Shown: piece after piece, positions 1,659 through 64,000 of the stretch
How positions within the stretch are numbered: position 1 is the stretch's first letter
How the letters are laid out: each line of letters opens with the position of its first letter
DNA from: Geosiphon pyriformis uo1
Lineage: Eukaryota > Fungi > Glomeromycota
Direction: 5' to 3'
Assembly: GCA_016748015.1 (NCBI GenBank)
Contig: JAAOMT010000694.1
Coordinates: 1 to 64,000 of the forward strand
DNA: 64,000 nucleotides
Notes under the pieces: generated by a model
Seen by the model: only the letters and a program-made list of their open reading frames with translations
Told to the model about the DNA's origin: nothing
Database searches by the model: none
Translations under genes and position numbers: made by a program

Positions 1659-1720
1659 AATTAAACAACCAAAAGAGTATATAAAGACACAGTATATGTG
1701 ACAAAAACAATATTAGAGAA

Positions 1721-2401
1721 ATAGAAATTACTAACAACATCTATTCACTAGCACAACAATTATTTTAACTGATCCAACAACAAGAGATAGAAATTACAAT
1801 TAATTAACAAACCATTAGATACAAAAACACCAGAAAGAGACCACAAAATAAAGTACAGAAAAAATCAGAAAACACTGTTGACAAAATAATCACAAAAGTA
1901 AAAGTGACAATAGAAGCACAACTAAAAGTCACTCAATATCAAGAGTTGACTATAAAAACTTGAAATTGGTGAATACAACAATTTCCAAGAAATTTTTGTT
2001 ACTTCTACTTGGGACAATACTTGAACATTCAGAATTTATACACAGATAAAACAAAACAATTATTCAACACAACAATACTGTAATAACTAGAACAATTTGT
2101 AAAAAAGAACAATTTGACCACACAAACAAGAGCCATTTATTGGCTACACACTAGATTTTAAGACTGACCAGAAATCTTATTCAATTCAGCAATAAACTTC
2201 ATTACTATTAACCAAATAAGACAATAACCAATGCCCAATTTGAAAAATTACAGAACAAAATAACCCAAGTAATTATCAAAAAAGAGATTCAAGAAATACT
2301 CAAAGACAGAAAATTAGAATTAGGAGATCTCGACAGAGCTCAATACTAAAGAGAAAAGAATAATGTTACTTATAGAATATAGAAAATATATTAGCATATA
2401 A
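1721..2401 (+). pseudogene. Family B 3' accessory ORF (ORF-X), unknown function, ends inside the LTR
   Basis: Manual translation includes FCYFYLGQYL...RAIYWLHTRF...NAQFEKLQ...TELNTKEKRIMLL. Homologous to 32156-32846. Confidence 0.65.
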
Positions 2402-12071: not shown

Positions 12072-12727
12072 ATGAACAATTATTTTCTAGATCAAAACAT
12101 TCAAAATGCTTTCTATATTCTCTATGAGTATTGGATCAAAAACTATCCAAATACTACTCTGACCATTGGAAAACAAACCACTATAACTGATAACAATAGA
12201 ACACATACTGTTATTAGACCCAAGAAAACCATTACCAAAAGAGAAAAAATTGGTAGAAAAATAGATAAATATCTGTTAGAAAGTATAACAACAATTATAC
12301 TCTTATCTTTTAATACAATTGGAAAAACCATCCAAGAAATCTTGCTCACAAACAAAAATTTGTCATATAAAAGGCAATTAAAACTCTATGGTTACTTTAA
12401 AAAAATCATAAAAGATATAAAACTCATGAAAAAAACCACTTCAAAGATACAGGCAGAAATTTTGGATATTATATAGTTAAATGTTCCAAGAGTTTTAACT
12501 ATTGCTAAAAGAGCCAAAACCTTAATACAAAAATTTGGTTTCTTGAATACAAAACTTATTTTGCCTCAAGTATTATATACCCTATTCACAAAAGACTTCA
12601 ATAAACTAGTTAGTTTTGAGTTAAATAAACTTTTTAAATAGATTATATCATGAATAGCTTGATTTCACCAGAGCTTAATTTCTTTGAAAAGGATAATGTT
12701 ACAATTAAAATCTATATTTCTTATTAA
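12072..12727 (+). pseudogene. Family A 3' accessory ORF-X
   Basis: MNNYFLDQNIQNAFY..., homologous to 54005-54661. Ends 31 nt inside the LTR. Confidence 0.75.
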
Positions 12728-13413
12728 TTATTACATGTATTAGCCACTAATGTTATATAATTAGCCACTTTATTTTTAGAAAATGATTATTGACCTAATC
12801 AATAATTTAACTGTTAATCTGATCATTGACTTAATTATTGATCTGATTATTGACTTAGTCATTAACTTAATCATTGACCACTTTTGATAGCTATATAAGC
12901 AATAAATTTCTTAGCTGTAGAAAAGCATATAAGAATCAAAAGAAAAAATATAAATAAAATAACAACTTTTATCTTAATTATTCTCTTATTGCTAATTTTT
13001 CTTTTCCTATCTTTAAGTATCTGAACATCTTGGGATAAAAAATTACTTGTTGGTTATTTCTTACCCTTTTCCTAAAATGTGTAATTGCAATATTTGAAAA
13101 TTATTGAATAAAAACATGACTGAAAAGTACATCTTATACCTGATATTAATTTCTAAGAGTGCCAATATAAGACATAAAATTATACTAGTGTATAATTATT
13201 TGTTAACAATATGAACTATCCTTCTATTTTCAGATTTTCTGGTTATCTTTTGAAAAGTATAGTGACTGAAATATTTTATGAAACTAATCTCACACATTGA
13301 ATTCATATTTATTCAATTTGCTCTTTAAAGTTAAATTCTCTTTGATTTCTTTTATTACTCTACAATCCTGTTCTCTCTTGCTATCTGTTAACTTGTTACT
13401 CCAACTCATAACA
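12697..13413 (+). repeat. 3' LTR of A1 (717 bp; 8 repeat units)
   Basis: PPT gaaaaggataa, then tgttacaatt...caactcataaca. Confidence 0.92.
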
Positions 13414-30305: not shown

Positions 30306-31360
30306 TTGAAACATCAGAGGCAATGAAGGAAGGAGACAAAGACACTAGCTTGGAGTCATCCAAAATCATCTTCAAACCCAAATCCAAATTGGTAGCCATA
30401 GGAGTGTCCAAGACTAAAGAGGAAGAAGAAGGAGCCTGAAACATCAATTTAAAATTGTTGAGTTTGTACATAATGCCAAAAACTTAATTGGTCAGAAGTT
30501 CTAAGGAAGCCAAATGAGTACTTAAAAAAGAAGTATCAGCAGAAGTAAAAGAAAAAGCACTCTTTGAACCTAAGACATTAAGAAAAGAAGAACTAGAACT
30601 AGACCCAAAGCGAGTACCACCAGAAGAATCAGCAAGTGAAACCATTTGGACCCAAGATTTGCCACCAAAGACAGCAGAACAAAAGATCAGAACACTTTTT
30701 TTTCATACAACTTGGCAAGCCAAAAACAAACTTCTTTAGAGGCAACCTTTTTATATGATTTTTTTGATGATGACAACACAGATATATCTGATGCATTACA
30801 TTCAAAAGTTAAATACCCAAAATGTCTACACTTCTTACAACAAACCAAATTCATCCTAGCCCAAGAGAGTTTTACTCCATTAAAGATAGATTTTGTGTGA
30901 AAAACAGATTCCAGATTATTATTGGAGTCAAAACTAACCACAGCATAGTGAATTCTATTATCAGTTTTTATAGATCTATTTATGACACAAGTTTTTCTAC
31001 CAGCATTTTCTAAAAGAGTCTTAAGATCATGTATTATTGTACCCATTAGCAAAGTAAACAAAAGTGCTCTGAAATGATCTTTAGATGCCCAAATCTCATA
31101 ATCTTCTATAGTCTTGGCTATGTGCACAGAATTTTTCCCAATTAAGAATGACTATTTTAAGACCAACAGATTAACTTAATCTAATTTGGCAAATTCTACT
31201 ATAGTCTTCTGTCATATTCCAATCAATTGAATTTTAATTGACTTAATTTCTCCAAATTCAGATACTGCAGTAATGATCATATCCTTAGATGTATCTATGG
31301 GAATTTTTTTGATTACTATAGCCTAATTTGACCTTATTTTTTGTCTTCTAAGATTGTTGT
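30306..31360 (-). pseudogene. LINE ORF1 fragment (L-1 family)
   Basis: FRALLFTLL, CKKCRHFGYLTFEC, LAKLYEKK. Homologous to about 17010-18060. Confidence 0.85.
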
Positions 31361-32193: not shown

Positions 32194-32846
32194 TTATTCT
32201 CTTCTTTTTAATATTGAGCTCTATTGAGATCTCCCAAATTTCCTAACTCTAATTCTCTGTCATTGAGTATTTTTTGAACTTTTTTTTCAAGAATTACTTG
32301 AGTTATCTTGTTCTGTAATTCTTCAAATTGGTTGTTAGTTATTTTTCTCATCTGGTTAACTATAATGAAGTCCAATTCCGAATTAAGTAAGATTTCCAGT
32401 CTGTCTTAAAATCTCATATGTAACCTATAAATGGCTCTTGCTTGTGTAGTCAAATTGTTTTTTTCTACAAATTGTTCTAGTTGTTGCAGTATTGTTGTGT
32501 TGAATAGTTATTTTGTTTTATTTGTGTATAAGTTCTGAATATTCAAGTGTCATTCCAAGTAGAAATAACAAAAGTTTCTTAGAAATTCATGTATCCATTA
32601 TTTCTAAGTTTCTTTGGTCAATTCTTGATATGTAGTGACATTTGTTGGTTTTTCTATTGTTAATTTTATTTTCAGAACCATTTTGTTGATACTGTTTTCT
32701 GTTTTTCTTTGACTTTTGTATTTGGGTATTTTTCTGGTGTTTCGGTATTGAATGGTTTATTGATTAATAGTAATTTCTATATTCTGTTGTTGAATTAGTT
32801 GGAAGAATTGTTGTGCTAGTGAGTAGATATTGTCAGTAATTTCCAT
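32156..32846 (-). pseudogene. Family B ORF-X
   Basis: MEITDNIYSLAQQFF..., homologous to 1721-2401. Confidence 0.65.
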
Positions 32847-32906
32847 TTTTCTGAAATTTTTTATTGCATTTACCATGTCTTTATATACTCTTTTTATTGT
32901 TCAATT

Positions 32907-34284
32907 TTACGTGTTTGGTCTAATGATTATGATTGGTTCCAAATCTCATAGAATTTCATCTGGTTGGATTAGTATTCTCTGTACTCCTAATTGTGGAATA
33001 TTACTGGTGGATGGTAACACTATATGGTGATATGATTTTAGTCAATCTCTATGTGCTGCTTTGGCTAAGATTTTGTTGTTCCATCTTAATTTATAAGTTC
33101 TATTTCCAAGAATTTCTTCTATATGAAATGGTCCATCTCATTTGGAGTTAAATTTTCCACTCTATTGTTTTTTCATTTTAGTATAATGTAGAAGTACTTT
33201 GTCTCCAATTTTAAATTCAACTGGTTTATCTAGTAGTTGGTTATTGTGTCTTTTTTTTTGTTTTTCTTGTGACTTTTGGATGTTATTAGCTGCTTTTTGC
33301 CATTTTGTTTTCTAATGTTTCCATTAAGTTATATGTTCTTCTTAGCAATGTTCTTTGGAAATTCTTTTCTGTTATTGATTCTGTTAGATATGTTTTGACT
33401 TTTATCTTAACTGGTAATGTTGCTGTTCTACCATATACTAATTCAAATGATGTTGCTTGTATAGTGTCTTGCTTTATTGTTTGATATGCAAATAATACTG
33501 ATGGTATGATTAAATCTCATTTATCTTGGTTTTTTTGGCTGATTTTGGCTATTGTTTCACATAGTGTTCTGTAGAATCTTTTGACTAACTCATTTGTTTG
33601 TAGATAGTATGGTGATAATAATGGTTTTTTTATTCCAAATCTTTGGCTTAATTCTGCTAATATTCTATTTACAAAGTGAGTTCCTTGATCAAATAATAAT
33701 TTTTTTGGACATTCATGTCAATAGATCAGATCTTGATGAACAAATTCGGCAATAGATTCTGCATCTGCTCTTTGAATGGCTTTTGCTTCTGGCCATTTAA
33801 TAAGATAGTCTATAACTACTGCAATATATTTGTTGCCTCTGCTGGTGATTGTTAATGGTCTAACTAAATCAATTCCAATATAATCAAATAGTTGTCCCAC
33901 TTTGATTGGTCTCAATGGTTCACTGGGTTTTGTTCCTTCTCTTTTCTGACAAGTATCACAGTTTTGAACATACTGAATGATGTCTGGATACATTGATGAC
34001 CAATAGTATCTTTTCCTAGTTCTTTCTATGGTTGCTTCTTTATGAAAATGTCCTGTTGTTGGATTTGAATACATGTTGAACAATATTGTCTCTTTTTCTG
34101 GTTCTGTAATTACTCTTGTTGGCTAGTCTGGATTTTTTCTGTTTTTTCAGTAAAGTATATTTTGATGATTGATAAAATATTTTGATTGTTGTTTTATGTT
34201 GTTTTGTTCCTTTTGAGATAATTTCTCCTTGAATAATTGGGTATTTATATAATGTTGGAGTTGTTGGTATTTTTGTATATTTAT
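32907..34284 (-). pseudogene. Integrase of B2
   Basis: GHFHKEAT...YVQNCDTCQ, IGIDLV, IDYLIKWPEA, DQGTHF. Confidence 0.9.
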
Positions 34285-34314
34285 CTTTTGTTATATTTTT
34301 GGGTTAAAATGTTT

Positions 34315-37300
34315 TTAGATTTGTCTCATTCATGACAAACCATCAGCATTTCTATTGTCTTTTTCTTTTTTATAACATACTGTATAATTGAATGATAAAA
34401 GTTCTATTTTCTATCTGACATGGTAGTCATCTCCAAATTTTTGTTTCTGAATTAAAATCAATCCTTTGTAATTAGTGTACACCTTAAACTTTTAACTCAA
34501 GTATTCCTTCCACTTGATAACAGCCCAATAGATGGCTAAGTGTTCCAGTGCTGGAGTTCTATAGTTTTTTTCAACTGGACTTAAGCTTCTGTTGGCATAA
34601 GCTACTGGGTGTTCTTATCTATCAGTTTCTTTCTGAGATAATACTGCTCCCAATGCTTGACCAGATGCATCAGTTGTGATTATGAATGGCTTGCTATGAT
34701 CTAGATAGATTAGTACTAGAGCTTGAATAAGCTTTCTTTTTAATGTATTAAAAGCTTCTTGCTGAATTCTGGTCCATTCATATTTGGTGTTCTTTGTTTG
34801 GAGTTGGTATAGTGGTTGAGCTATTTTGGAAAAGTTCTTGATAAAGTGGTAGTAATATCCAGCAAATTTCAAGAATTCTCTCAATTCTGTGAGATTATTT
34901 GGTATTGGAAAGTTTTTGATGATCTTAATCTTGTCTGGATCTATTTTGATTCTATCTTTGCTCACAAAATGCCCCAAAAACTTGAGTTCAGTTTTTCCAA
35001 AAAAACATTTGGTTGCATTTAACTTTAATTCGGCTCTTTTTAGTCTTTTAAACACTTGTTAGAAATAATGCAGATGATCATTGAATGTTTTTGAAAACAC
35101 ATTGGTGTCATCCAAATATATGATTACTGATTTCCATAGTAGCCTAATATAAACAATTTCCATAAGTTGCTGAAAAGTGGCTGGAGCATTTATCAAGCCA
35201 AATAGTATTACTTTGAATTCAAAGTTTCCTTCTCAAGTTGTAAAAGCCATTTTTTTTTTGTCTTCTGGTTTCATGGCTACTTGCCAGTAACCACTGTCTA
35301 AGTCTAACGTTGAAAATTATTTCTTTTCTCTAAAAGCATTAAAAAATTCTTGAATCTTTGGAGTTAGGTAGCTGTCTTCTTTTGTTACTCCATTCAGTTT
35401 TCAGTAATCCACACAAAAGCGGATTTTCTCATTCTTCTTATGGATTAGTACCACTGATGATAATCATGGGCTTATTAATGACTGAATTAACCTGTTGTTA
35501 AGCATCTGATTAATTTCTTGATGAATAATCTCATAGCTGGCTGGTGGTATTCTGTATGCTCTTTGTTTAATTGACATTCTATCTCCAGTTTTGATCTGGT
35601 GCTGGATTATATCAGTTCTGCCAAACTCATTTTCACTGGCAAAGATGTCATTGAAATTGTTGAGTAATATATTAAGTTGTATATGTTGTAGTGGATCTAA
35701 GTTTTCTATGTTCATTTGTTCCAATTGTTTTGGTTGAAGCAAATAACATTTATTTTGTCCATATATTGTTTGAGATGTGATATCCACATATTCACACAGT
35801 TGTGAAAAATCTGAAATGGTGTTTGGGAATTGGTCTTCAATTTCTGTGGTCAAGTATCTAATGGTGGTTTTTTTTGGTATTTTAATAATGTCTCCTGTAT
35901 TATTGTAAATGGGGATTTTGATGTGGCTGTGGTTTTTGGCTGGTATATGTAAATTGACTAATCCGATCTTTTCTGATTTACAAAATGTTGCTTCTGCTTT
36001 AAAAATTTGTATTTGATCTTTTACTTTTCTTTCTATAATTACCATGTACTAGTTATATGATGGAATAGAAATTGGTTAATAGATGGAGATAATTTTTCTC
36101 TTGTCAATAATTTCTTCCTCTGCCATATTAACTGGTACATCTATTCTACTCATGGATTTGAATCTCTGTATTTCTCTAGCTGTGATTCCTAATTCTTTCC
36201 TGTTTTCTACTGATACTAATTAAGCTATTTTGACCAGAAGCAGAAATATTGCCTGTGCTATCTTTTCATTTAGATCTATAATATATGTCTTTTCTGAGTT
36301 ATTTTGTAGCATTGCAATGATATTTTCTATGTATTTTGTGTCAATTATTTCTCCTCAGATGTTAATTCCCTTTTTGGCTAAGCTACTCCTAGATGCTAAC
36401 TGAATCATTGTTGTTGCTGGAATTTTCAGTGCTATTTTGAGATCAATGCAGGTGCACAAATGGAGTTCTAATTTAATGGAATTTTTTTTCAGATATCTCA
36501 GATCAAATTCTGCATTAGTATTATGTGTGCATTCTGGCATAATATTTTCATTATTATTACTGAACCATTTAAGTTCTTGTTTCTTGGTGAAATCAGGGAG
36601 TGCAATATATGTTTTGGGATTTGAATCGGAGTTCAAATTGCTATATTTTCTATTGTCACATTGAGCTGAACTAGAATTATTGTTTTCATCATCATTATTG
36701 TCAGAGTTTGAATTAGGATTGAAAGTTGATTCCGATTCTGATGCACAGCTGCTGATTGGTTTCTTCTTTTTTGGAATTGTGTAGATCATGTGAATTGGTA
36801 AATTGTAAATGAGATCATACTTATTACAATATTGAAAGTCACATGGGATTAAACAGTGGTCACATAGTCTTGTATTTATTTCTTCCAACCATTGCTCTTG
36901 TTCCTCTTTAGTGGGTGCTAATTCTTGGTAGTGTTCATGGAATTGTTCTGAATCCAGGAGGTTTATGACTGGTTTTGGGTCTCAGTCAAGTTTTATGGAC
37001 TCAGAAAGGTTATTTTTGATTGTCTTTATTTCTCCTGGTGTTGCTCCTTCAATTTTGGTGAGAGCCATTTGCCAAATTTTGTCATCATTGTGTGGACATC
37101 CGTTAAAGTGTTTAACTGTTTGTCTCCAGACAGCGTCTATGGGTGTTTCTTTTTTTACCTAGTTATTTATAAAAATTGTGTATTGATATGATTCATCACA
37201 TGTTCTTCCTCTCCCAAGAATGTTATCCACATTTCTTCATTGAAAAAAGTTTTACCACAAGCCAAGCATGGCTTATTATTCTATTTTCTAACTTATTTTG

Positions 37301-37704
37301 GTCTTCCAAAGCATTCAATGATGCATGGGTGGCAATAAAATTTAGTTGCCATTAGGTATTCCTTATTGTTACCACAGCATGCGCTCATTGATGACAATTT
37401 TTTGTCACAATCAACACATATAAGCTTTGGTTGATGATAATGTGATTGTGGTGGTTGAAAGTAAGTATATGGGATATATATTGTGGTAGTAATTGGTTCT
37501 GGTCCTTCTTCTTTTCCTTTTTCTTTCTCTTCCCAAGTCCAAATTGGTGACTGCTTACTTTGACTATTACTGTTCCAATAACTTTGGTTAGTTTTCCCAG
37601 TAAGTTCTTCTTCTCTTTTTTCCTTTTCTTTGTTATTTCATGATAGTATTAGTGGCAGTTCATTGTGTTCTGTGTTGGCTCAGAAGACTTGGTAGGCTTC
37701 TCAG
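34315..37704 (-). pseudogene. pol of B2: Cys-rich domain, dUTPase, RT, RNase H
   Basis: KFLGH, TTDASGQALGAVL, NADGLS; CDHCLIPCDFQYC. Confidence 0.9.
36146..36543 (-). pseudogene. dut: dUTPase domain in B2 pol
   Basis: AEFDL (motif I), RSSLAKKG (II), decayed motif III, KIAQ (IV) and decayed motif V. Confidence 0.8.
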
Positions 37705-38455: not shown

Positions 38456-39293
38456 TAAAAGTGGTGCTTCCTGTAAGGTTGTCAAAATTCACTTATTTCC
38501 TCATTGTATGGGTGATTATTCATACTTGTCACAGCAATTAGAAGAACACTTTGCAGCACACAACAGAAACGACCTAGAGTTTATTGAACTCAATCCTCTG
38601 CCCTTCTGCTTGATCTGTTTTCCTATTAAAGAACAATCCAGTAGACAATTTCAAGACTTTTGGAACTGGTTCCTGAACAAGCATTCAGCTGAAACCTACA
38701 CAGCTTATACTATCTATTACTTTGATCAAGCTTATTTTGAAGACAATTTTGAAAAAAGAAATACCAACATTAATCAGCTTTTATACTCCACAACCTTTGA
38801 ACAACAGCCCCCTGATTTCGAATATTTGAATCACCAAATCTATATTTGAATTGCTGCTCACCAACTAGTTGAAAACCCCTTTGAAACAGAAGAAGAAAGT
38901 TACCAAACTGCTCCTATTTTTGATATTTTCTCAAGTGAATCAGAGCACTCCACACAAACAATAACTCCTGAACCAATGGCCCAAGATCCAATACAAGCAA
39001 ACATCCTGACTGCCCTCCAAAGTATACAAACTGCCTTGGGGCAAAAAAACAACACTCTACTACTATTATTTAGAGGTGATGCACAAGATCCAATTGAATG
39101 GTTGGATGACTTTGAGAGAGCTGCTACAGCTAACCAATACGATAATGAGTACAAGTTTCAAATTGTTGGTGGCTACCTTCAAAGCTCCCCTGCCATCTGG
39201 TTCTCACAAGAAACTGATGCCAATGCTCATCAAAGAATCAGTAGATGGATGCCAGCAAATGTTGAAGAAAACAATACCTCTTTTACAACCCAG

Positions 39294-40269
39294 TGTTACC
39301 AGAGGTTTTTGGGTCTCTTTTCTTAAATGTTGTTGATGTTGATTTGCTGTGTTTTCAGGAAGTAGTTGAACTTCCAGTAATAAATTTATCTTCAAATTAT
39401 TTTCTATAATTTGAACTGCTGGGCTTATAAGTAGAATGGCCAATTCTGTGCCAGTTGCTTTGTGTAGTTACATTGTAGTAAACATCAACTCTTTCCCAGG
39501 AATTGCTCGTCTGGAAGCTCACTAAAAAATGTGTAGTTACTTTGCTGTGAAAGTCAACTCTTCTACAGGAATCTTGTCTATAGGCTACTCTAATGATTAT
39601 AATAAGAAAAATAAAAGAAAGAAAATAAAAGAAATGTAAAAAAAATAGAATTCTGTCAAGGGAAACATTTTCTATCCAGGTCTGGAGTCACTAACAGTTT
39701 AATGAAATTGGTAGCTAATTAATTTCAAAACGTTAGTTGGGTTTTGGGGATTTTCCAAATGCAATAATTAAAGAATTTGGTTTTTCAATTTATTTGATAT
39801 TTTTTTTTTTTTGTGTGTATAGGAATGATTCTAAGTGATAAATCTAAAGTAAGATATATTTTCTCAAAAAGAAAAGCTCTTCTTTTATACAACTTGTTGT
39901 AACACTATTCCATGAACTTGAACTTTGCTTTTTTTTACAATTTTGCTGAACTAAAGATACATTTCGGTAAACTACAAGTTATTTTTGTGAACTATTAGAT
40001 ATTTCAGTAAACTATCAATTATTTTGGTGAATTTCTACAAATTTCGGCAAACTTTTGAATGTTACATATTTCAGGGTATTGCATAATTGATCATCACACT
40101 TAGGTTACATTTGTGTTATGTACAAATTGGGTTATTGATTAAATGATAATTTCAGACATTTTGCTAATGTAATAAGTGATAATTTGAAACGATAATATAT
40201 GCTAATTAATGATAAGATTTATAAGAGTAATTTCATGCTAAACAATATCTCTAATTTTGTCTGGTAACA
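39294..40269 (-). repeat. 3' LTR of C
   Basis: Inverted termini tgttaccaga...tctggtaaca. Confidence 0.96.
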
Positions 40270-40957
40270 TAATTTTTTTCTTAAGACTGAGCTCCATCAA
40301 AATCCAAGTACTGTCTGTAATTTCCAGATAATAATCCAAAATTATTGAAGAAATTTGGTCTGAAAATTGTTGAAATTTCAGTTCTGTGAGCTTTCCAATG
40401 TATTGAATCTTTAAAGGCTGTAAAATTGAATTTTGTAGGACGTTTTTACAGGTGTGGAATAGGTTATAAAGTCTAAGAGCAGCTCTTAGTTTATAATGAC
40501 TGTTTGTAGGTCCAGCTGTTGTCTTGAATTTGTTGTGAAGTTGTTTCCGAATAGCTTCTTTTGTGAGGTTTGCTGCTGTAAGCTCCCATTTTCGTTTATG
40601 AAGTGTTTTTCCAATGTAGAAATATCTATATATTGGAGTATAGTCATAGTTTTCTTCATTAAGACACAGTTGAAGTTTTTGTTGAATAGTAGCATTTAGT
40701 AGAATACTAATAGGAGTGAGCATTAAGTTTTCTTTTAAAGCAAGCTTTAAAAATTCTGGCAGGTGAATTCCAGAATAACTTCTTGTGTTCTTCTTATATG
40801 GATGATATTTTTGTGAATTTGGGGCTAAATTTGTAACTACTTTTGTTTGGGTATAATTAATGTGGTTTCCAGTAACAGTAATGAATAATTTGGGTATTGT
40901 TTTTAAAGCTAACATTAGTTTTTGGGATAATTGTTGAATGTTTTGAGGAATAGTCAT
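40238..40957 (-). CDS. Family C 3' accessory ORF-X, intact at 239 aa, unknown function
   Basis: Uninterrupted ATG-initiated ORF between IN and the 3' LTR. Homolog at 63348-64000. Confidence 0.8.
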   Translation of the reverse strand: MTIPQNIQQLSQKLMLALKTIPKLFITVTGNHINYTQTKVVTNLAPNSQKYHPYKKNTRSYSGIHLPEFLKLALKENLMLTPISILLNATIQQKLQLCLNEENYDYTPIYRYFYIGKTLHKRKWELTAANLTKEAIRKQLHNKFKTTAGPTNSHYKLRAALRLYNLFHTCKNVLQNSILQPLKIQYIGKLTELKFQQFSDQISSIILDYYLEITDSTWILMELSLKKKIMLPDKIRDIV

Positions 40958-41078: not shown

Positions 41079-42464
41079 TTAAGTGTTCAAGTTGAGAGGT
41101 TGTTCAATAACAACTATTGGTTCTAAATTTCAGAAAATATCTTTGGGATTGATTAAAGGGGAATGTGTACCAATTTGTAGAATTAATAGTTCAGGATTGT
41201 TTCTGGAATTATAGTGTTTCAAACAATCTCCATGTACAACTTTTGCTAGGATTTTGTCATCAAGTCTTAGCTTGTATGATCCGTTGCCTAGGACTTTATG
41301 AATAAAGAATGATCCATCCCATTTATTTTCAAATTTTCCACTCCATTGTTTTTCAGCTTTAGTTCTGTATAAGAGAACTTTGTTTTCGATTTTAAATCCA
41401 TTGGTAACTGGAGGCAATTTGTCATCATGCCGTTCTTTTTGTTGAGCTTGGGAGTGTTTAATATGGGTGGCTGCTATTCATCGTTTTTCTTCCAACGTGC
41501 TAAGCAGAGTGTAGGCTCTTCGTTGTAGTGTTTCCTGAAGATTGTCTTTATTAATTGGTTGTACTAAATATGTTTCTATTGTAAAACTAATTGGTAATAT
41601 TGCTGTCCTTCTGTAGATTAAATCAAATAATGTGTGTTTTGTGGTATCTTGTTTTAGTGTTCTATATGCTAGTAACACTGATGGAATAAAAAGATCTCAT
41701 TCTTGCTCAAAATCAGTTGAGACTTTGGCTAATGATTCACATAATGTTCTGTTGAAACATTCTACAAGTTCATTTGTTTGTGGATGGTAGGACGAAGATA
41801 ATGGTCTCTTAACATTAAATTGTCCACAAATTTCCTGGATTAAATTGTTCACGAAATGTGTTCCTTGATCAAATAAAAGTTTTATTGAGCATCTATGTCT
41901 ACAAATGATGTTTTCATAAATGAAGTTTGCTACTGATTTTGCATCTGCTTGTTGAATGGCTCTGGCTTCAGGCCATTTGGTAAAATAGTCTACTGCTACT
42001 GCAATATAACGGTTTTCTTGGTTTGTAATAGGTAGTGGTTTGACTAAATCGATACCAACTTGGTCAAAAGGCTGTCCAACTTTGATTGGGTTTAAAGATT
42101 CTGTAGGGTGAGTTTCTCTTCTTCTTTGACAACTATTACAAGACTTAATGTATTCATGAATGTTTTTTTTCATTTGAGGCCAAAAGTAATATTCTAGTGT
42201 TCTCTGGGTGGTGCTGTCTTTTTCTAGGTGTGCTGATGAAAGGTCTAAGTGCATGTTATATAAAATGGTTTTTTTTTCATGTTCTTGTATTAATCTGAGT
42301 GGATTGTCTGGGTTTCTGAAGTTTCGATAATAAATCATGTTGTTGTGTAAGAAATATTGTTTGGCTTGTTGTTGTAACCAATGTTTTTTATCTGAGGACC
42401 AATCTGTTGGAATTGTTAATGTCTCCAAATATTGTTTAAGATTGTTGTAGTTTTCAAGGTTCAT
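41079..42464 (-). pseudogene. Integrase of C (separate ORF)
   Basis: MNLENY..., HHCC, VGIDLV, DYFTKWPEA, DQGTHF, HPQTNELVE, WDGSFFIHKVLGNGSYKL. Confidence 0.92.
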
Positions 42465-42510
42465 TTTTTGTTGTTTTGTTGTTAATTTAAATGGGTGTTG
42501 GTTTTGTATT

Positions 42511-45500
42511 CTAATTTTGCCTTATTTTTGAGAGACAATTAACATTGGTATGGAGTTTTCTTGGTTTGTGGTGTACAATATATTGGTAGTTGGCTAAAAA
42601 TTCTGTCCATCAAGTTTGTTTTGCGTTTAGCTGAGCGTTTTTGTTCTGAAGCTATTTGAGTCTAATATTATCAGTAATATTATCAAATTCTTTGGATCTG
42701 AGGTAAAGGTTGAAGTAATGTAGGGCCCAAATTACTGCTGCAGTTTCTAATTCTGTTGCAGAGTAGTTCTTTTTGGCTGGTTTCAATGTTCTGCTAGCAT
42801 AAGCAATTACTCACTCATTTCTATTGTCATTTAACTGTAATAGGATGGCACCAAAGGCAGTATAAGAGGCATTTGTTGCTAACTGGAATTGGTTGCTAAA
42901 ATCTGGGTAAGCGAGAATTGAAGCTGTCATTAGTTTTTTTTTGAGGATTTCAAATGTGTTTTGGTGTTTAGCAGTCTATTTGTATTTGACGTTTTTGGTA
43001 GTAAGCTGGTTGAGAGGTTTTGCGATTTCTGAGAATTCTTTGATAAACTTCCGATAGTAAGAGGCTAATCCTATGAATCCTCTTAGTTCTGTAGTGTTTT
43101 GAGAAGTTTTGAAGTTTTTGACAGCACTGATTTTTCCAGGGTCCAGTTTGATTCCATCTTTACTAATGATATGACCGAGGAAGGCCAAGCTTGTTTTTCC
43201 AAAGTAGCATTTTTTAATGTTAAGTTTCAGTCCTGCTTTTCATAATTGTTGAAAAACTTCTCGCAGGTGTTTTAAGTGTAATTCGAATGATGGAGAATAA
43301 ACATCAGTATTGTTAAGATAAATGACTACTGACTTCCAAAGGAGTCTTTTGTATACAATATTCATTAATCTCTGAAATATTGCTGGTGTATTACATAATC
43401 CGAAAGACATTACATTGAATTTGTAATTTTCTTCTTGAGTTGTAAATGCTGTTTTGGGACAATCTTTGGAGTCCATGGCAACTTGCCAGTATTCACTTTC
43501 TAGATCTAGTGTTGAAAAGTATTTGGCCTTTCCAAGAGCATCCAACATATCATCAATTTGGAGAAGGGGATAGGCATCTCCAATGGTGACACTGTTGAGT
43601 TGTTGATAATTAACACAAAATTGTATCTTTCCATTTTTCTTTTTAACTAAGACCACAGGTAAGACCCATGGACTCATTAATGGTTGAATAAGCCTATTGT
43701 TGAGCATCTATTGTACTTCTTCATAGATAAATTGGTGACTTTCTGAAGCAATTCGGTAGGCTTGCTGTTATCTTGGTTTGACATCTCCTATATAGATTTG
43801 GTGTTGAACCAAATCAGTTCTTTCTAAGTCATTGTTGTTTTCAGTAAAGATATTGGCAAATTCTGCAATTAGCTCTTTGAACTGGCTTTGTTGTTGTGGT
43901 TCAAGTTGTCCCATGTTGATTCGAGATAGTTTTTTTATGACAACATGGTAGTTTTTAGAGCTGTGGTTTGGGTTGATTTTTGGTAGTGAATGTCCAATAA
44001 TTTCAGAGAAATCGGGAACTGTTTGGGGTAATTTTTGTTGAAAAATATTACTGTGAATAACTCCAATTTCTAAGTTATTAAATAGAACTATGAGGTAATT
44101 ATTGGGGTTGTAAAAAGTAACTCAGACTTTCTTTGTTTCTTCTGGGATGTAAATATTTGGGATTGAGATATTATGTTTCAAGCAGATTTGTTTATTGGAC
44201 TCAAAAATTTGTTGGGTGGTTGTTGGCTTTGGGCAGATATAGATTTCGGGGTGTTTTTCAAAAGGTAAAATAGTGATTGGTTGGAGAAGGCATAAAATCT
44301 GGTAAGACTCATTCTGTTCATTGAGACCTATGTTTACTGGAACTGTAAATCGTCCAGTTGAACCAAAATCTTGTGTTCCTCTTTTGCTTTTTCCCAATTG
44401 TTCTCTTTAATTGACTAACTGTAAGCCCGAAATGTTGATTAAGAGTAAATAGATAGCTTGAGCAATTTTTTTGGCATGTTCAATTTTGAAAGGTTTATTG
44501 GTTTTATTTTAGAGTATTACTGTTATGTTACCAGTATATTCAGCATTGATTATTCCTCCTTTGACATTGATTTCTTTGCTTGTTAAAGAAGACCAGGAGG
44601 CAATTTGAACCATTGCTCCTGGCAGGATTTCGAGGGCAATTTTGAGATTGGTTTTTGTAAGAGATTTGGGTTTGAGAACAAGAGTATCCTTGTCTGGATA
44701 TTTTAGGTCATATCTAGCATCAATTTCATATGTTTTTTCAGGTTTTATTCCTTGTCCGTTGTTGTTGAAGTATTTGAGTTGTAAGGCAGACTGATTTTCA
44801 ATGAGATAGATAGGTGTTGCTTTAATTTCTTCTGTTGCTTTAGGTTCTCCAAATTCAATTTCGTTTTCATTGTTTTTACTGGGCAGGAGAATGCTAAAAG
44901 CATAGCATTTAGAGCACTATTGCTTATCGCAAGGCATTATGCATTCTTCACACAATTTAATGTTCATTTGCTCTAGCCGTTGGGCTTAAGCTTCTTTGGT
45001 TGGATAAGTGTGACTGGCAATTTGGTGATATACTTCTACTTTATTTTTGTAGTTGTATCTAGCGATTTCAAAGATGTATGCAATGTATTCTGATTTTTTC
45101 ATTTGACAACATTTTTTTGAGTGGCTCTGTTGATTAAAGCCATTGCTAGATCGAAAATCATTTTGGTATTGTGAGGGTAATAGTACAGTTTGTTGAAGGT
45201 GCTGTTGTAAGCAGCATTAAAAGAAGTTCCTCTTATTACTTTTTCTGAGATTAAAAGGGCATATTGACATGTTTGATTGCAGACTCCTCCTCTGAATGTA
45301 ACATCAATCCAGTCGCATTCATCAGGTAATTGTTTTCCACAAGTCAAACAGGGTGTTCTGTCCCATTTTTTACTTCTTTTGACTAAATGTCCCCATTGTT
45401 CTTGGTGACAGGATTTGCAATAGTAATAGGTATGGTTTCTGTATTTTTCCTCGGGTGAAATACAAGCTCCTATTGATGAGAGTTTCTTGTGGCAATCTTT

Positions 45501-48110
45501 GTATTTGAGTGAAATGTAAGAGTGTTGTTTTCGTGGTTCTGGTTTTAAATAGGGGACATTCCATTCAGGTGTCACTGGTTTTTTTGTTTCAAGAGAATTG
45601 TTTGTTGAAAAATACTGTTGTTCAGTTTCATCAGCCCAATTGGAGGTTGATCCAAGTGCCATAAATGTTTCAATGATGAGTTTTTCTTCTTCCAGTTCGA
45701 ATTCAAAAGCCAGGGCTTTTTTGGAGTGTTTGTTGAATGTACTACAAGTGGCAAGTATCTGGGCGTGTTGTCTTTGGTAGGAGATTGTTAACTCTTGTGT
45801 CTCCCAATTTAGATTAGCATTGGCTTTTTGGAGTCAATCATTTTTGACGAGAGCTTGGTATTGGGGAGCATTCATGACCAGAACTTTGACTAGAATAATG
45901 ATTCCATCAATTGTAAATGGAAAGTTGTTAATTTCTCTTACTAGAGTTTTTTTCATGCCATTGGCAGTGATAATTACTGTCTGAACTGGTCAGTCAACAT
46001 TTTTTTTTAACTGTTGTATCAACTGGTAGGTGATGATGCTTCCAGCAGATCTACTGTTTAGAATCAAGCAAATTGTCTTTCCTTTGACTTCTGCTTCAGT
46101 GTACATAGCAGTGATTGCTTTTTGTTTGTTGGTGGCTGCATTGCTAAGCAGGAATGATGACTCATTTGCTTCGAACTCAAAAGGAAATATATCTAAAAGA
46201 TTGGCATTTTTAGCAATTCTGGCTGGTGGGATTGTGATAGGAGTATAGAAAGGGTTTTGTTATTGTGCTGCAGCTCTACCTTCTGAGAGTGCAGTATGGC
46301 AAAAATCCTGTTCTTCTGGCATCATAATATAACTAGATTGAGTATAATAGTGGTTGGGTCTATGTTGATTCGAATTTTGAGTGGTTAATTGGTTGTTGGA
46401 ATTTAATCTGTTGTTGTTTGTTGGAAAACGGTTTTATGATATAAATTGATTATGTTGAACCAATCTTCTAGCTGGTACTTGATATTGTGGTGTAGATGGT
46501 TGTTGATACTGTTGTTAAATTAGTTGTGGAGCAAGTTGATAATAGTGGTTTGAATATTGTGGTCATGGTAAATATTGAGCTGGTGGTGATGGATAATATG
46601 ATTGTTGTGGTTGGGAATAACATTGATTATTTCTCTGTTGTTGGTCTTGTTGCAATTTTCTACAATCGCATTTCTAGTGTCCTGAAATTCTACAATAATG
46701 ACAATTTTGGATTTGGTTGTTGGATGGTGGTCTAAAGTTGTTTTGATTGCATCATTGTGGGGGTTAGTATCTTTGTGGTTGTTGTAATTGCTGTGGCAGC
46801 TGTTGTTGCTGTTGGTTGGTAAAGTAGTTTTCAACTTTCTTGGTTAATTGGTCAATTTTTTTTTTAGCTGCTGAGCTGGTTTTGCCAATAGCCAGGTTAA
46901 TAAGTTTGGTATGGTTGGCTTCTTTCATGGCCATTTCATAGTTTTTTGCCTGTTGAATAGCAGTGGCTAAATCTTCTGGTGCATGTGGACAAACTTTCTT
47001 GATAAGTTTGTCTTTTAGTCCAGTAATGAATTAATCCAAGATTTGTGTATTGGAGTAGCATTTATTGGTTTCCAATTGGCAAATTCTTCTAAGCAGTTTG
47101 TTGAATTTCTCAAGATAGGTCATAACTGATTCACTTGGTTCTTGCTTGATATTTCAGAACCAATTTTAAAGGGTAATGGAAGTGTTATTATCAGTAAACT
47201 GTTCTAGAAAAGCAGTTTTGAATGCTTCCCAGTGTTCTGGTGGGGCTTTTAAGTTTTCAAACCATTCACCAGCTGTTCTTTGTAAGAAGTATAGAATTGC
47301 TTTTAACATTCTGGCAGCATTTCAACCATTTGCATCTCCTGCTTTTGAGACTTTGTCAAGCCATTCTTGAGGACTGGTTTCACTGTCTTCTCCTGTGAAC
47401 TTAGAGATTTTTGCAATATATGTGGAGGCCATTTCTTCTTCATTTTCTGAGTCTTCTGTTTCTTGTTCTAATTCAGTCTCTTCACTTCGATTTTCTGCTA
47501 AGTAGTCAATAAGGTTTGTGCTGGTTAATATTGGTTCCTATTGTTGAATAGGGCTTTTGGGTGACTGAAAATCTTCTATTCTTGAAAACTAAATAAGTGG
47601 TGAGTTTGGTATTTGTGGTTGAGCAAGTGAAGCTAGAAATGGTGTGATTGAGAGTGGTAATTTAAAGCTGGTTCCTTGTTCTGGAGTTTGTAAATGTTTG
47701 GCAGTGGTTTTAGGTATATTGGAAGTAGTTCTGAGTTTTTGTTTCCTTTTTCCTTTTTTTTCTTCTGTTTCTGATTCAAAACCAAGAGAAAATTTCTGTT
47801 CTACTGGGTAATTTTCTTCACAATACTGAATGATATTGAAGTTGAGTTCTTGGAAATATGTTTCAAGTGTTTAACTGTTAAAATCCTGAGTGTTTAGACG
47901 AGAGTGATGTACTAAGCTTTCATATAAGTTGTGTCTAACTTCTGAAATGTTGTAGTCTCCAAAAAGATAATTGTTAATACGATTTTCAATGTACTGGTAA
48001 AATGTTTTCTTGAATGTTTCAATTCTGTCTGGAATGTTAAATCTCTGCTTGCAGTGGGTGTAGATTGACTGATAATACTCTAGAGTTCTTGGATCTGTTT
48101 GAGTCACCAC
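42511..48110 (-). pseudogene. gag-pol of C (capsid, CCHC, protease, Cys-rich domain, dUTPase, RT, RNase H), apparently a single frame
   Basis: KFTGED...EWLDKV, CYYCRISGH..KCDC, LILNSRS, FSTLDL, GFIGLASYYRKFI. Ends LSKIRQN*. Confidence 0.9.
44352..44748 (-). pseudogene. dut: dUTPase domain in C pol
   Basis: ARYDL, SSL, GGIINAEYTG, KIAQ, RGTQDFGSTG. Confidence 0.88.
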
Positions 48111-48156: not shown

Positions 48157-49132
48157 TGTTACCAGAGGTTTTTGGGTCTCTTTTCTTGAATGTTGTTGAT
48201 GTTGATTTGCTATGTTTTCAGAAAGTAGTTGAACCTCCAGTAATAAATTTATCTTCAAATTATTTTCTATAATTTGAACTGCTGGGCTTATAAGTAGAAT
48301 GGCCAATTCTGTGCCAGTTGCTTTGTGTAGTTACATTGTAGTAAACATCAACTTTTTCCCAGGAATTGCTCATCTGGAAGCTCACTAAAAAATGTGTAGT
48401 TACTTTGCTGTGAAAGTCAACTCTTCTACAGGAATCTCATCTGTAGACTATTCCAATGATTATAATAAAAAAAATAAAAGAAAGAAAATAAAAGAAATGT
48501 AAAAAAAATAGAATTCTGTCAAGAAAAACGTTTTCTATTCAGGCCTGGAGTCACTAACAGTTTAATGAAATTGGTAGCTAATTAATTTCAAAACGTTAGT
48601 TGGATTTTGGGGATTTTCCAAGTGCAATAATTAAAGAATTTGGTTTTTCAATTTATTTGATATTTATTTCTTTTTGTGTGTGTAAGAATGATTCTAAGTG
48701 ATAAATCTAAAGTAAGATATATTTTCTCGAAGAGAGAAGCTCTTCTTTTATACAACTTGTTGTAACACTATTCCATGAACTTGAACTTTGCTTTTTTTTA
48801 CAATTTCGCTGAACTAAAGATACATTTTGGCGAACTACAAGTTATTTCTGTGAACAATTAGATATTTCAGTAAACTATCAATTATTTTGGTGAATTTCTA
48901 CAAATTTTGGTGAACTTTTGAATGTTACATATTTCGGGGTATTGCATGATTGATTATCGCACTTAGGTTACATTTGTGTTATATACAAATTGGGTTATTA
49001 ATTAAATGATAATTTCAGACATTTTGCTAATGTAATAAGTAATAATTTGAAACGATAATATATGCTAATTAATGATAAGATTTATAAGGGTAATTTTATG
49101 CTAAACAATATCTCTAATTTTGTCTGGTAACA
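48157..49132 (-). repeat. 5' LTR of C
   Basis: About 95% identical by eye to 39294-40269. Confidence 0.96.
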
Positions 49133-52585: not shown

Positions 52586-52644
52586 CAGTACAACTACCTT
52601 AAACCAAACCAACCTAATTATTAGTAATTTTCTCACAACCAAAC

Positions 52645-53963
52645 ATGATAATGGACTTGGACAACTACTCTGCCTTAATAGAATTTTTGGGTAAGAACAA
52701 TACCCACTGGAATACAATTAACAGCAAAGAGAACATTTGCCAAACAATCAAATTTTTATTTGATTCACCAGAACCAACTATACAAAAGAAACAGAAAAGA
52801 TCCTGACCACTCCCAGAGAGTCATAAGATTTGAAGAAAGAGAAATTGTGATCTATAACATGCACACTGATTCATTAGCTAGACATTTTGGAAAGACTAAA
52901 ACAATTCAGAAAACTTTAGCTCACTATTATTGGCTTATCTTGGGAAAAAACATTGCTGAGTACATTAAAACCTGTAATACCTGCCAAAGAAGAGAAAAAC
53001 CCAATAGAAAAAAAGATATCCATTCAATCTCTGTTGGCCAACCATTTGACAAGATTGGTATAGATGTTGTTGGACCCTTAACAATAACCCCTAATGGCAA
53101 CAGATACATTATCACAGCTACCAACTATCTTACAAAGTGGGTAGAAGCAAGAACCACTTCAGACCAAACAGCAGTCTTAATAGCCAATTTCATTTATAAA
53201 GATATCATCTGCCATCATGGCTGCTCCAGAGAACTTTTATCTGATAGAGGAAAAGCTTTTCTCAATATACTGGTTGAAGAACTTTATAGAAAAATGGAAA
53301 TATGTTACAAACTTTCCTTCCCTTATCACCCCCAAACAAATGGCTTAGTAGAACGTTTTAATAGAACACTATGTGAAACTCTAGTCAAAACAAGTGAAAA
53401 AACAAACTTATGAGACAAAGTACTGCTTTCAGCTTTGTTTGCTTATAGAACTGTAAATTATGACATAACAAGTTATGCACTTTTTTATTTATTTTATGGA
53501 CACATGACAACACTACCAATAGAAACTGACATTGAGACAATACCCTTTGAAGAAATCACAATAGCAAATTACAAAGACATTTTGCAAAGAAGATTTGGTA
53601 CCATTCTTGACTTATTGGTAGAAGCACAAATAGTTGCTTTTGAAAAGATAAAACAGTTTCAAGAAAAGCTTAAAAAGAAAAAAACCTATAAAACACTTTT
53701 TTTAAGTGTTGGTAACTTGGTATTAGAATACCATTTAGACAAAGACAATGTTTATGGGTGATAAATTTTCTAGCCAGTGGAAAGGATGCTTTATAGTCAA
53801 CAAAGTTTTGAACAATGGTTCTTATATTCTTCAAGATCAATCTGAAACAATTTTTAATGATCGACCTGTTTATGGCATGCAACTCAAGAAATATTACAAA
53901 CGATCTGATTGGTTGCCTGTTGTGGTAATACTGACTCAAATGATCAACAAAAATCAAGTATAA
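52645..53963 (+). pseudogene. Integrase of A2 (separate ORF)
   Basis: HHCC, IGIDVVGPL, SDRG, HPQTNGLVERFN, WKGCFIV. Confidence 0.92.
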
Positions 53964-54004
53964 ATAAATGCACCATTCCCAAAACAGAGGTATCTTCAAT
54001 TGAC

Positions 54005-54661
54005 ATGAACAATTATTTTCTGGATCAAAACATTCAAAATGCTTTCTATACTCTCCATGAGTATTGGATTAAAAACTATCCAAATGCTACTTTAACTATT
54101 GGAAAACAGACCACCATAACTGACAACAGTGGAACATATACTGTTATTAGACCAAAGAAAACAACTACCAGAAGAGAAAAAATTGGTGGCAAAATAGATA
54201 AATATCTGCTAGAAAGTATAACAGCAGTGATACTTGTACTTTCTACCACACTTGGAAAAACAATTAAAGAAATCTTACTCATGGACAAAAACTTATCATA
54301 TGGAAGACAACTAGAGCTCTATAATCACCTTGGTGAAATTATAGATGACATGAAGCTTATAAAGAAAACAACTTCAGAGATACAGGCAGAAATTTTGGGC
54401 ATTATATGATTAGATGTTCCAAGAGTTTTAACCATTGCTAAAAGAGCCAAAACTTTAATACAAAGATTTGGTCTCTTGGATACAAAACTCATTTTGCCTC
54501 AAGTATTATACACCCTATCTACAAAAGACTTCAATAAATTAGTTAGCTTTGAGTTAGATAAAACTCTTCAAATAGATTACACTATAAATAGCTTAATTTT
54601 ACCAGAGCTCAATCTCTTTGGAGAGAATAATATTATGGTTGAAACCTATACTTCTTATTGA
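54005..54661 (+). pseudogene. Family A ORF-X (one internal TGA)
   Basis: The ORFs at 53909-54409 and 54476-54661 are in the same frame. Overlaps the PPT and the LTR start. Confidence 0.78.
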
Positions 54662-61732: not shown

Positions 61733-61790
61733 TATTAACAACAAAACTCATTACAATTTACCAATTTACCAACACAATAACCAAACAACA

Positions 61791-63175: not shown

Positions 63176-63347
63176 TTCAACATAATTTTACAATAATCTT
63201 TTTTTTAATAACCCACAAAACATAAATCAAAAACAGTAAATAATTACAAAAAAACATTTAAACCCAAAAACAAATAAAAACTCTATACCCAAAAAATAAT
63301 TTTCTTTATTCTTTTTCAAACTTTGTTATTAATTAGTCATTTTTATC

Positions 63348-64000
63348 ATAATTATTCTCCGAAATATTTAACAAATATCCCAAAAATTAATGTTAGCTTT
63401 GAAAACACTTCTTGACTTATCCATAAAAATTAATGGAAGTCAAATTAATTACATTCAAAAAAAAACCACAGCCTCAATAGTAAATAATTTTCAGAACTAT
63501 TACTCTTATAGAAGAAAAACAAGAAGTCACTCTGGAAATAAATTACCAGAACTTTTGAAGCAAGCACTAAAAAAAAATCTTTTAATTGTTCCTATTGATA
63601 TTCCACCAAGTGCCACAATACAACAAAAACTTTTACTATTCCTTAATGAACAGAACAATAAACATACTCTTATATATAGATATTTTCTTATTGGAAAAAT
63701 ACTTTATGAACGAAAACTGAAACTTGAAGCAACCAACATCACTCCTGAGGCTATACAAAAACAAATTCACAATAAATTCAAAACAGCAGCTGGATTAACA
63801 AACACTTGCTACAAACTTAGAACAGTATCTAGACTCTATAATTTATTCAACACTTGTGAAAATGTCTTACAAAATCCAATACTCCATCCAATGAAGATTC
63901 AATATATTGGAAAACTCACAAAACTGAAATTTCAACAATTTTCAGACCAGATCATTTCAATTATTTTGGACCACTATCTTAATATTACAAATAGTGCTTG
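63348..64000 (+). pseudogene. ORF-X of D (runs off the window)
   Basis: IYRYFLIGKIL, VSRLYNLF and IQYIGKLTKLKFQQF match C ORF-X. Confidence 0.78.

What the first reader, a model, noticed from the sequence alone, without database searches (positions are those of the whole stretch)
40238..40957. Shared non-env accessory gene between integrase and the 3' LTR, overlapping the PPT and U3
Seen: every family has a ~220-240 aa ORF after IN that reads through the PPT and stops about 30-40 nt inside the LTR. It is intact in C and has one stop in A2. Despite low identity, the same motif order recurs: Y-x-x-[LI]G-x-x-[LI] (LYNHLGEII / CYFYLGQYL / RYFYIGKTL), then an A-x-R-type helix (AKRAKTL / TRAIYWL / ALRLYNLF), then [ST]-x3-F-x2-[LF] (LSTKDFNKL / TNAQFEKL / LTELKFQQF), then EL[NS]. 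No signal peptide or TM segment is evident. Established: complex retroviruses place nef, sag and tas/bet in this position. Inference: an ancestral helical accessory protein, possibly a transcriptional or translational transactivator or an anti-silencing factor.
Basis: partly seen in the sequence, partly recalled or inferred. Interest (0 to 1): 0.82.

Follow-up and report, generated by a model that had tools for sequence, protein, structure and literature searches.

The report
Third gene in fungal Gypsy retrotransposons
Several divergent Gypsy-type jumping genes in a mycorrhizal-type fungus carry, right after their integrase, a small helical non-envelope gene that selection has kept and that resembles no described protein family; it likely works as a trans-acting helper for the element's own unusually multi-gene RNA, which is untested.

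Summary
Real, with corrections. Element C (Ty3/gypsy-type, LTRs 95% alike; homologues are named Geosiphon pyriformis) has an intact 239-codon ORF (40957-40238, minus) after integrase, ending 32 nt inside the 3' LTR. Families A and B have ORFs in the same slot. All three show purifying selection (dN/dS 0.44-0.57, like integrase). B and C are clearly homologous, with two more families and metagenome proteins; one metagenome element has the same layout. A is at best a remote homologue (profiles negative, global-alignment z 2.8-5.1). Corrections: B stops before the PPT, and 'EL[NS]' is a DNA motif (GAGCTCA) read in different frames. No membrane segment, no Pfam, PDB or viral fold match; the core folds confidently as helices. 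Integrase is itself a separate ORF (6 of 6 junctions), and A and B have a TATA box 41-46 nt before ORF3. Best guess: a post-transcriptional helper made from its own promoter (0.33); anti-silencing or transcription role 0.27. No function was tested. The scan noted similar third ORFs and split integrases in other genomes.

The parts
40238..40957 (-). ORF3 of element C, 239 aa, intact; last 32 nt lie in the 3' LTR
39294..40269 (-). 3' LTR of element C (976 bp, TG...CA)
   Evidence: 95.4% to the 5' LTR
48157..49132 (-). 5' LTR of element C; target duplication CCAG at 39290-39293 and 49133-49136; PBS-like TGG right after the LTR
40270..40294 (-). GAGCTCA DNA motif and polypurine tract of C, inside ORF3
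41130..42464 (-). Integrase of C, separate ORF with its own ATG 46 nt after the RNase H stop (42513-42511); broken by stops
42511..48100 (-). gag (zinc knuckle-like), protease, Cys-rich stretch, dUTPase, RT, RNase H of C; decayed
54005..54661 (+). ORF3 of element A2, 218 codons, one internal stop at 54407-54409; ends 31 nt inside the LTR
53959..53965 (+). TATA box 46 nt before the A2 ORF3 start (also in A1 at 11996)
12072..12730 (+). ORF3 of element A1, decayed (stops, one frameshift); end approximate
32208..32846 (-). ORF3 of element B2, 212 codons in one frame, 6 internal stops; ends 15 nt before the LTR
32881..32887 (-). TATA box 41 nt before the B2 ORF3 start (also in B1 at 1678)
1719..2349 (+). 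ORF3 of element B1, decayed (start codon lost, stops, frameshift); ends approximate
63345..64000 (+). ORF3 of C' (sister subfamily of C), cut by the window end; start approximate

Best explanation
ORF3 is a selected third gene of a lineage of fungal Ty3/gypsy-type retrotransposons whose integrase is also a separate ORF; it is likely transcribed from its own internal promoter, and its small helical protein likely acts in trans on the element's multi-gene RNA to get it exported or translated, including the downstream integrase. Shown: the layout gag-pol(stop) | IN (own ATG) | ORF3 (own ATG) | PPT-LTR, purifying selection, homology across five lineages, no membrane segment. Predicted: a compact helical core (residues about 80-210) behind a basic, low-confidence linker. 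Inferred: a subgenomic mRNA from the TATA box to the 3' LTR; RNA as the target; a role like caulimovirus TAV or Rev/CERV. The overlap with the PPT is incidental: a conserved DNA signal is read in whichever frame the gene ends.
For: Gene reality: dN/dS 0.44 (95% bootstrap 0.32-0.62) C/C', 0.56 (0.34-0.85) A2/A1, 0.57 (0.37-0.86) B2/B1, against 0.43 and 0.62 for integrase and 0.43 for RT; context-preserving permutations reach the observed low number of amino-acid changes in 0, 0 and 49 of 2000; no gap in 653 aligned nt of C/C' ORF3 against 49 gap columns in the 173-nt spacer. Age: an unrelated metagenome element (L001, RNase H 56%, IN 57% to C) has the homologous ORF in the same slot. Need for a helper: RNase H ends in a stop in 6 of 6 junctions and IN has its own ATG 24-59 nt later in 5 of 6, in all three frames. 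Own promoter: TATA box at -46 (A2) and -41 (B2), kept in A1 and B1; only 5 of 445 ATGs on element sense strands have one at -55..-35, these two included. In CaMV the last ORF (TAV) has its TATA box in the 106-bp spacer after RT and drives reinitiation on downstream long ORFs (PMC5902531, passages). The most basic 20-mer lies in residues 29-68 in 8 of 10 proteins, where the model has pLDDT under 50 (39-62). A [RKH]x2-5PY motif lies there in C, both metagenome proteins and family E; that this is a PY-type nuclear signal of RNA-binding proteins is recalled, not tested.
Against: No sequence or fold link to any RNA regulator. No canonical TATA box at that distance in C, C' or L001. The two metagenome proteins are net acidic (pI 5.4 and 5.9). 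The PY motif is absent from A and B and present in only 13 of 23 full-length C copies. A short stop-to-start gap may allow IN to be made without any trans factor. A nuclear signal fits export better than reinitiation, so the two versions of this reading pull apart. Family A is not shown to be homologous by profile methods.
Confidence: 0.33

Rival explanations
1. ORF3 is a nuclear transcription activator or anti-silencing factor that would bind the element's LTR or internal DNA, or blunt methylation or small-RNA silencing (Tas- or VANC-like).
For: Small helical protein with a basic linker; own TATA box in A and B, which would allow expression before the LTR is on. The window is strongly CpG-depleted (observed/expected 0.10), and TE methylation and small RNAs are reported in Rhizophagus irregularis (10.1101/2021.03.30.436303, passages). 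Fast divergence relative to IN suits a host conflict. DUF1016_N is the commonest weak Pfam match (7 of 51, best E 0.015).
Against: No helix-turn-helix or other DNA-binding fold stands out (best Z 5.2 and 5.4). The DUF1016_N likeness scores 13 by hhalign, inside the range of 60 column-shuffled controls (up to 26). dN/dS is below 1, as low as integrase.
Confidence: 0.27
2. ORF3 is an adaptor that would carry the separately made integrase into the particle or nucleus, or steer its target choice.
For: Integrase is not fused to Pol, so it needs another route to the cDNA (inference); the two genes are adjacent; no chromodomain was found at the IN C-terminus.
Against: Only adjacency supports it; ORF3 diverges far faster than IN (about 25% against 48-57% identity), which is loose for a fixed binding partner.
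Confidence: 0.15
3. ORF3 is a structural or movement protein (non-membrane particle component, or aid to spread between nuclei of the coenocytic fungus), filling the env slot functionally.
For: It sits where env sits. The ESM Atlas lists a closterovirus coat-protein cluster at 0.92 and 0.91 for two homologues.
Against: No signal peptide-like or membrane segment. The Atlas rows share 147 and 138 features, under the 170 typical of true family members, and the viral structure library gave no match with E up to 0.001.
Confidence: 0.1
4. Family A's ORF is an independent capture, unrelated to the B/C gene; the shared motifs are chance or DNA-level.
For: hhalign A against each other family at most 0.25% probability, while the other 10 pairs give 34-99%; A scores 0.5 bits or less on the joint profile.
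Against: Global alignment of 3 A copies to 7 references gives z 2.8, 3.5, 5.1 (0 of 150 shuffles reach it), reversed A about 0, 9 control proteins at most 1.5. Same slot, size and predicted order of helices and strands (the A model is low confidence, pLDDT 43). A has the most distant integrase (37-45%).
Confidence: 0.3
5. The ORF is a non-functional by-product of sequence kept for the PPT and LTR.
For: The C-terminal motif is DNA-level; most copies in the window are broken.
Against: Selection on the protein over more than 200 codons upstream of the LTR; homology across lineages; confident fold.
Confidence: 0.02

Closest known systems
Additional ORFs between pol and the 3' LTR of Ty3/gypsy elements (plant aORFs: Athila, Bagy2, Grande gene23, RIRE2, Retand; fungal Boty; PMC7264820, parts 1-2 of 3 read)
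   Same: Same slot, present in most copies, conserved about as well as core genes, function unknown; Grande gene23 has its own promoter and is nuclear.
   Different: The review's sense-strand examples are env-like, often with membrane segments, and its non-env examples are antisense; this one is sense, soluble, and sits in an element with a split integrase.
ORF3s of bdelloid rotifer LTR retrotransposons (PMC5408684, abstract only)
   Same: Non-env third ORFs in dUTPase-bearing gypsy-type lineages.
   Different: Those are recognisable captures (fusion glycoprotein, GDSL esterase, DEDDy exonuclease); this one matches no enzyme family.
Caulimovirus P6/TAV (PMC5902531, passages)
   Same: Last ORF after RT, own TATA box in the spacer, on a genome whose long ORFs are separated by short stop-to-start gaps.
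   Different: No sequence match; TAV belongs to plant pararetroviruses; no activity shown here.
CERV of C. elegans Cer1 (PMC10309623, abstract and section 15)
   Same: Retrotransposon-encoded non-env accessory protein with no likeness to retroviral proteins, needed for export of genomic RNA.
   Different: CERV is large, made from a spliced mRNA, with a G-protein-like domain and an essential cysteine loop; ORF3 is 212-244 aa with no invariant cysteine.
Retroviral nef, sag, tas/bet (position and roles recalled)
   Same: 3' position; overlap with PPT/U3 in A and C.
   Different: No Pfam match to any of them at significance; the overlap is absent in B.

Membership tests
Ty3/gypsy LTR retrotransposon (host element) | Two direct LTRs, TG...CA, with a short target duplication | tested here: met
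   C: 976-bp LTRs, 95.4%, CCAG on both sides
Ty3/gypsy LTR retrotransposon (host element) | Domain order protease-RT-RNase H-integrase | tested here: met
   Pfam RVP_2, RVT_1, RT_RNaseH, Integrase_H2C2, rve in this order
Ty3/gypsy LTR retrotransposon (host element) | PBS after the 5' LTR and PPT before the 3' LTR | tested here: met
   TGG-starting site after the C and C' 5' LTRs, purine run before each 3' LTR; the priming tRNA was not identified
Ty3/gypsy LTR retrotransposon (host element) | Integrase as part of the Pol polyprotein (the usual state) | tested here: not met
   Stop after RNase H in 6 of 6 junctions, own ATG in 5 of 6: a variant layout
Ty3/gypsy LTR retrotransposon (host element) | RT phylogeny inside a named gypsy clade | not tested
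   Only an unrooted tree of the six local elements was built
env or env-like ORF | Signal peptide and membrane anchor | tested here: not met
   Largest 19-residue hydropathy mean 1.33 in 10 proteins; no dedicated predictor was run
env or env-like ORF | Fusion-glycoprotein fold | tested here: inconclusive
   No significant fold match of any kind
DUF1016_N (PF17761) | Score above the curated cut-off of 32.8 bits | tested here: not met
   12.9 bits for P0008; 7 of 51 members at E up to 1, best 0.015
DUF1016_N (PF17761) | Profile-profile similarity above controls | tested here: not met
   hhalign probability 0.22%, score 13.1, in register but inside the shuffled range; both profiles were shallow (10 rows each)
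Caulimovirus TAV-like transactivator | Own promoter in the spacer after pol | tested here: inconclusive
   TATA box in A and B, none at that distance in C, C', L001; no RNA data
Caulimovirus TAV-like transactivator | Sequence homology to P6 | tested here: not met
   No such Pfam family among the matches at E up to 1
Caulimovirus TAV-like transactivator | Promotes reinitiation after long ORFs | not testable with these tools
   Needs a dicistronic reporter
CERV / Rev-like export factor | Cysteine loop and G-like domain of CERV | tested here: not met
   No invariant cysteine in 16 aligned homologues; all-helical core
CERV / Rev-like export factor | Required for export of unspliced genomic RNA | not testable with these tools
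   Needs a knockout or reporter

The most novel reading that the evidence does not exclude
These elements are polycistronic retrotransposons that encode their own translation-reinitiation transactivator: ORF3, made from an internal promoter, lets ribosomes restart at the separate integrase ORF after Pol, as caulimovirus TAV does, but with an unrelated helical fold. It would be a fungal LTR retrotransposon with a complex-virus gene-expression programme.
Probability: 0.12. Interest if true: 0.85.

Novelty: new variant of a known kind. Interest (0 to 1): 0.5.

Why it matters
Fungal LTR retrotransposons are usually described as gag plus pol only (PMC3248453, passages). LTR sequences cover 41.2% of the Geosiphon pyriformis genome (PMC11952901, passage), so an old, selected accessory gene shared by its families may be part of how they expanded in a genome whose CpGs are heavily depleted. 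It defines a protein family with a confidently predicted helical core and no structural match, and it explains hundreds of 'hypothetical proteins' in that genome's annotation as transposon genes. Together with the split integrase it gives a simple testable question: how does a three-cistron retrotransposon express its downstream genes?

Tried and rejected
No whole genome is held, so copy numbers and genome-wide dN/dS could not be had; dN/dS rests on three pairs in the window. RNA: none was listed, so expression, start sites and splicing are open. Pfam, PHROGs (best E 0.0012, unknown function), PDB sequences (best E 0.76) gave nothing significant. Fold searches of the C model: Foldseek PDB and BFVD 0 matches at E up to 0.001; VIA-align best Z 5.2 (rmsd 2.8, 69 aligned) among 48,161 chains and 5.4 (rmsd 4.2, 79 aligned) among 992; this does not show that the fold is new, and residues 1-80 were barely tested. 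The A model was too poor to search (pLDDT 43). DUF1016_N likeness (a recalled lead): not above controls (of 10 plasmid loci fetched, 9 were used with E. coli YhcG, the split gene L014 was left out). A GIY-YIG reading of the YIG motif was dropped: the region is helical and no such family matched. Closterovirus coat-protein rows of the Atlas: weak, not backed. IMG/VR holds no relative of C or P0246 (0 of 138 and 0 of 58 candidate stretches). The contig of P0246 was not seen. The ORF3-integrase complex was not folded: no verdict. The splice acceptor at 53987 is present in A only and was not supported elsewhere. Seven paper searches listed no description of this ORF; subscription journals and supplements were not seen, and the Geosiphon genome papers were not read.

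Full report
Setting. The window is a stack of nested, decayed retrotransposons in AT-rich DNA. All 120 listed homologues of the ORF and all 101 of the family A ORF are named hypothetical proteins of Geosiphon pyriformis, a Glomeromycotina fungus in whose genome LTR sequences cover 41.2% (PMC11952901, passage). Element C runs on the minus strand between LTRs 39294-40269 and 48157-49132 (95.4% alike, TG...CA, CCAG duplicated) and carries gag, protease, dUTPase, RT, RNase H and integrase in gypsy order.

The observation. A2 has a 218-codon ORF from 54005 with one internal stop, ending 31 nt inside its LTR. B2 has a 212-codon frame with 6 internal stops, but it ends 15 nt before the LTR, and B1 ends the same way. 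So reading through the PPT is not shared. The 'EL[NS]' motif is DNA: GAGCT[CT]A[AG] occurs 6 times in 64 kb on both strands and all 6 lie 25-28 nt before a 3' LTR; an alignment of 8 junctions, one from another organism, keeps AGCT.A invariant. A and C read it as E-L, B as A-Q; family D proteins end in G-A-Q-F, which fits the B frame.

It is a gene. Kappa-corrected dN/dS is 0.44 for C/C' (217 codons), 0.56 for A2/A1 (208) and 0.57 for B2/B1 (208), with bootstrap upper limits 0.62, 0.85, 0.86; integrase of the same pairs gives 0.43 and 0.62, RT 0.43. These values mix selection during transposition with neutral decay since. Permutations that keep trinucleotide context reach the observed counts in 0, 0 and 49 of 2000, so B is the weakest. 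C/C' ORF3 has no gap in 653 nt, against 49 gap columns in the spacer before it. Of the listed homologues, 23 of 120 (C) and 20 of 101 (A) have the exact full length. That this C copy is intact is unremarkable: its pol has 7 stops in 693 codons.

How far it is shared. A profile of 51 C sequences against 1.84 billion representatives found 35 proteins at E up to 0.001. Of the seven weakest ones that I looked up, five are Geosiphon models and two come from metagenome collections (P0246, P0248, 25-27% to C). A second search gave 49 hits, mostly a further Geosiphon family D, 7 of them gene models fused to the integrase SH3 domain, which places D's gene after integrase. P0248 lies on contig L001 in a nearly intact element: RT-RNase H, integrase, a 316-nt spacer, ORF3, PPT, LTR start. 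Leave-one-family-out profiles score B 111 bits, C 87-102, D 70-106, E (P0249/P0250) 134-138 and the metagenome proteins 78-90, against at most 15 for about 500 shuffles each; A scores 0.5 or less. hhalign gives 34-99% for the 10 pairs without A and at most 0.25% for the 5 with A; the diverse profile against A gives 1.4%, E 0.038, 103 columns in register. A global-alignment test gives z 2.8, 3.5 and 5.1 for three (related) A copies, about 0 reversed, at most 1.5 for 9 controls and 21-26 for true members. A also has the most distant integrase (37-45%) and the same predicted order of helices and strands in a poor model. I put A's homology at about 0.7. The Atlas lists Mucoromycota clusters of hypothetical proteins first at 0.93, a lead for a wider range.

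The protein. AlphaFold2 with 12 sequences gives mean pLDDT 71.6: an N-terminal helix and hairpin (50-60), a linker under 50 (39-62), and a helical core at 80-94 (about 81-210). No Pfam, PHROG, PDB-sequence or fold match is significant. No membrane segment is present. The DUF1016_N likeness did not beat shuffled controls. The linker is the most basic part in 8 of 10 proteins and holds [RKH]x2-5PY in C, E and both metagenome proteins, not in A or B; the reading as a nuclear signal is recalled.

The context that suggests a job. RNase H ends in a stop in 6 of 6 junctions (C, C', A1, A2, B2, L001) and integrase begins at its own ATG 24-59 nt later in 5 of 6, in differing frames; B2's start has decayed. 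The element thus has three cistrons. A TATA box lies 46 nt before A2's and 41 nt before B2's ORF3 start and is kept in A1 and B1; 5 of 445 ATGs have one in that range, these two included; C, C' and L001 do not. This matches the layout of caulimoviruses, where the last ORF has its own TATA box after RT and its product drives reinitiation (PMC5902531, passages), and recalls CERV, an export factor of the Cer1 retrotransposon (PMC10309623, abstract and section 15). I therefore commit to a post-transcriptional helper acting on the element's RNA (0.33), ahead of transcription or anti-silencing (0.27; CpG ratio 0.10 in the window; TE methylation and small RNAs in Rhizophagus; VANC as precedent, PMC13547354, passages), integrase adaptor (0.15) and structural role (0.10). 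Each rests on analogy; no RNA run was listed and the complex job gave no verdict.

Comparison and novelty. Extra ORFs between pol and the 3' LTR are a known kind (PMC7264820; PMC5408684, abstract). This one fails the env, DUF1016_N, TAV and CERV membership tests that could be run. Seven paper searches listed no description of it, within a library that lacks most subscription journals. Earlier notes of this scan report a selected helical third ORF in gypsy elements of two other genomes and a split integrase in two; sequence look-ups with C, P0248 and an A protein returned nothing, so I could not tell whether those are the same family. Verdict: a real, old accessory gene of an undescribed protein family, a new variant of a known kind, interest 0.5.

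Noticed in passing
window 42464-42513 (-), 52583-52647, 10620-10683, 61730-61793, 34200-34320 (-); L001:772-801: Integrase is a separate ORF: a stop follows RNase H in all six junctions, with an A/C-rich 24-59 nt spacer before the integrase ATG, in differing frames.
   Followed up: partly
window 206, 2336, 12671, 54605 (+); 32221, 40294 (-); L001:3092: A GAGCTCA DNA motif 25-28 nt before every 3' LTR and nowhere else in the window; likely a cis signal beside the PPT.
   Followed up: partly
window 45099-45833 (-), 37293-37637 (-), 58700-59000 (+), 50950-51100 (+): A cysteine-rich stretch without a Pfam match lies between protease and dUTPase in C, C' and B; A has a shorter Cys/Trp-rich motif between protease and RT and showed no dUTPase there.
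   Followed up: no
window 48100-47350 (-), 56130-56850 (+): C and C' have about 230 codons of open or decayed frame upstream of the recognisable gag start, possibly a long N-terminal extension; no Pfam match.
   Followed up: no
window 39290-39293 and 49133-49136: C is inserted into the gag of A2 with a 4-bp duplication CCAG, which could be a decayed CpG-centred site as another note on this genome proposes.
   Followed up: no
whole window: CpG observed/expected 0.10 with TG 1.30 and CA 1.24; copies differ mostly by transitions.
   Followed up: partly
window 320-420, 12780-12870, 29520-29600: Some family A LTRs carry a short tandem array of about 12-bp units that other A LTRs (37827, 54631) lack.
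   Followed up: no
window 26803-28317 (-), 19417-21891 (+), 30373-31354: Long ORFs of another repeat class, probably non-LTR elements, are nested among the LTR elements.
   Followed up: no
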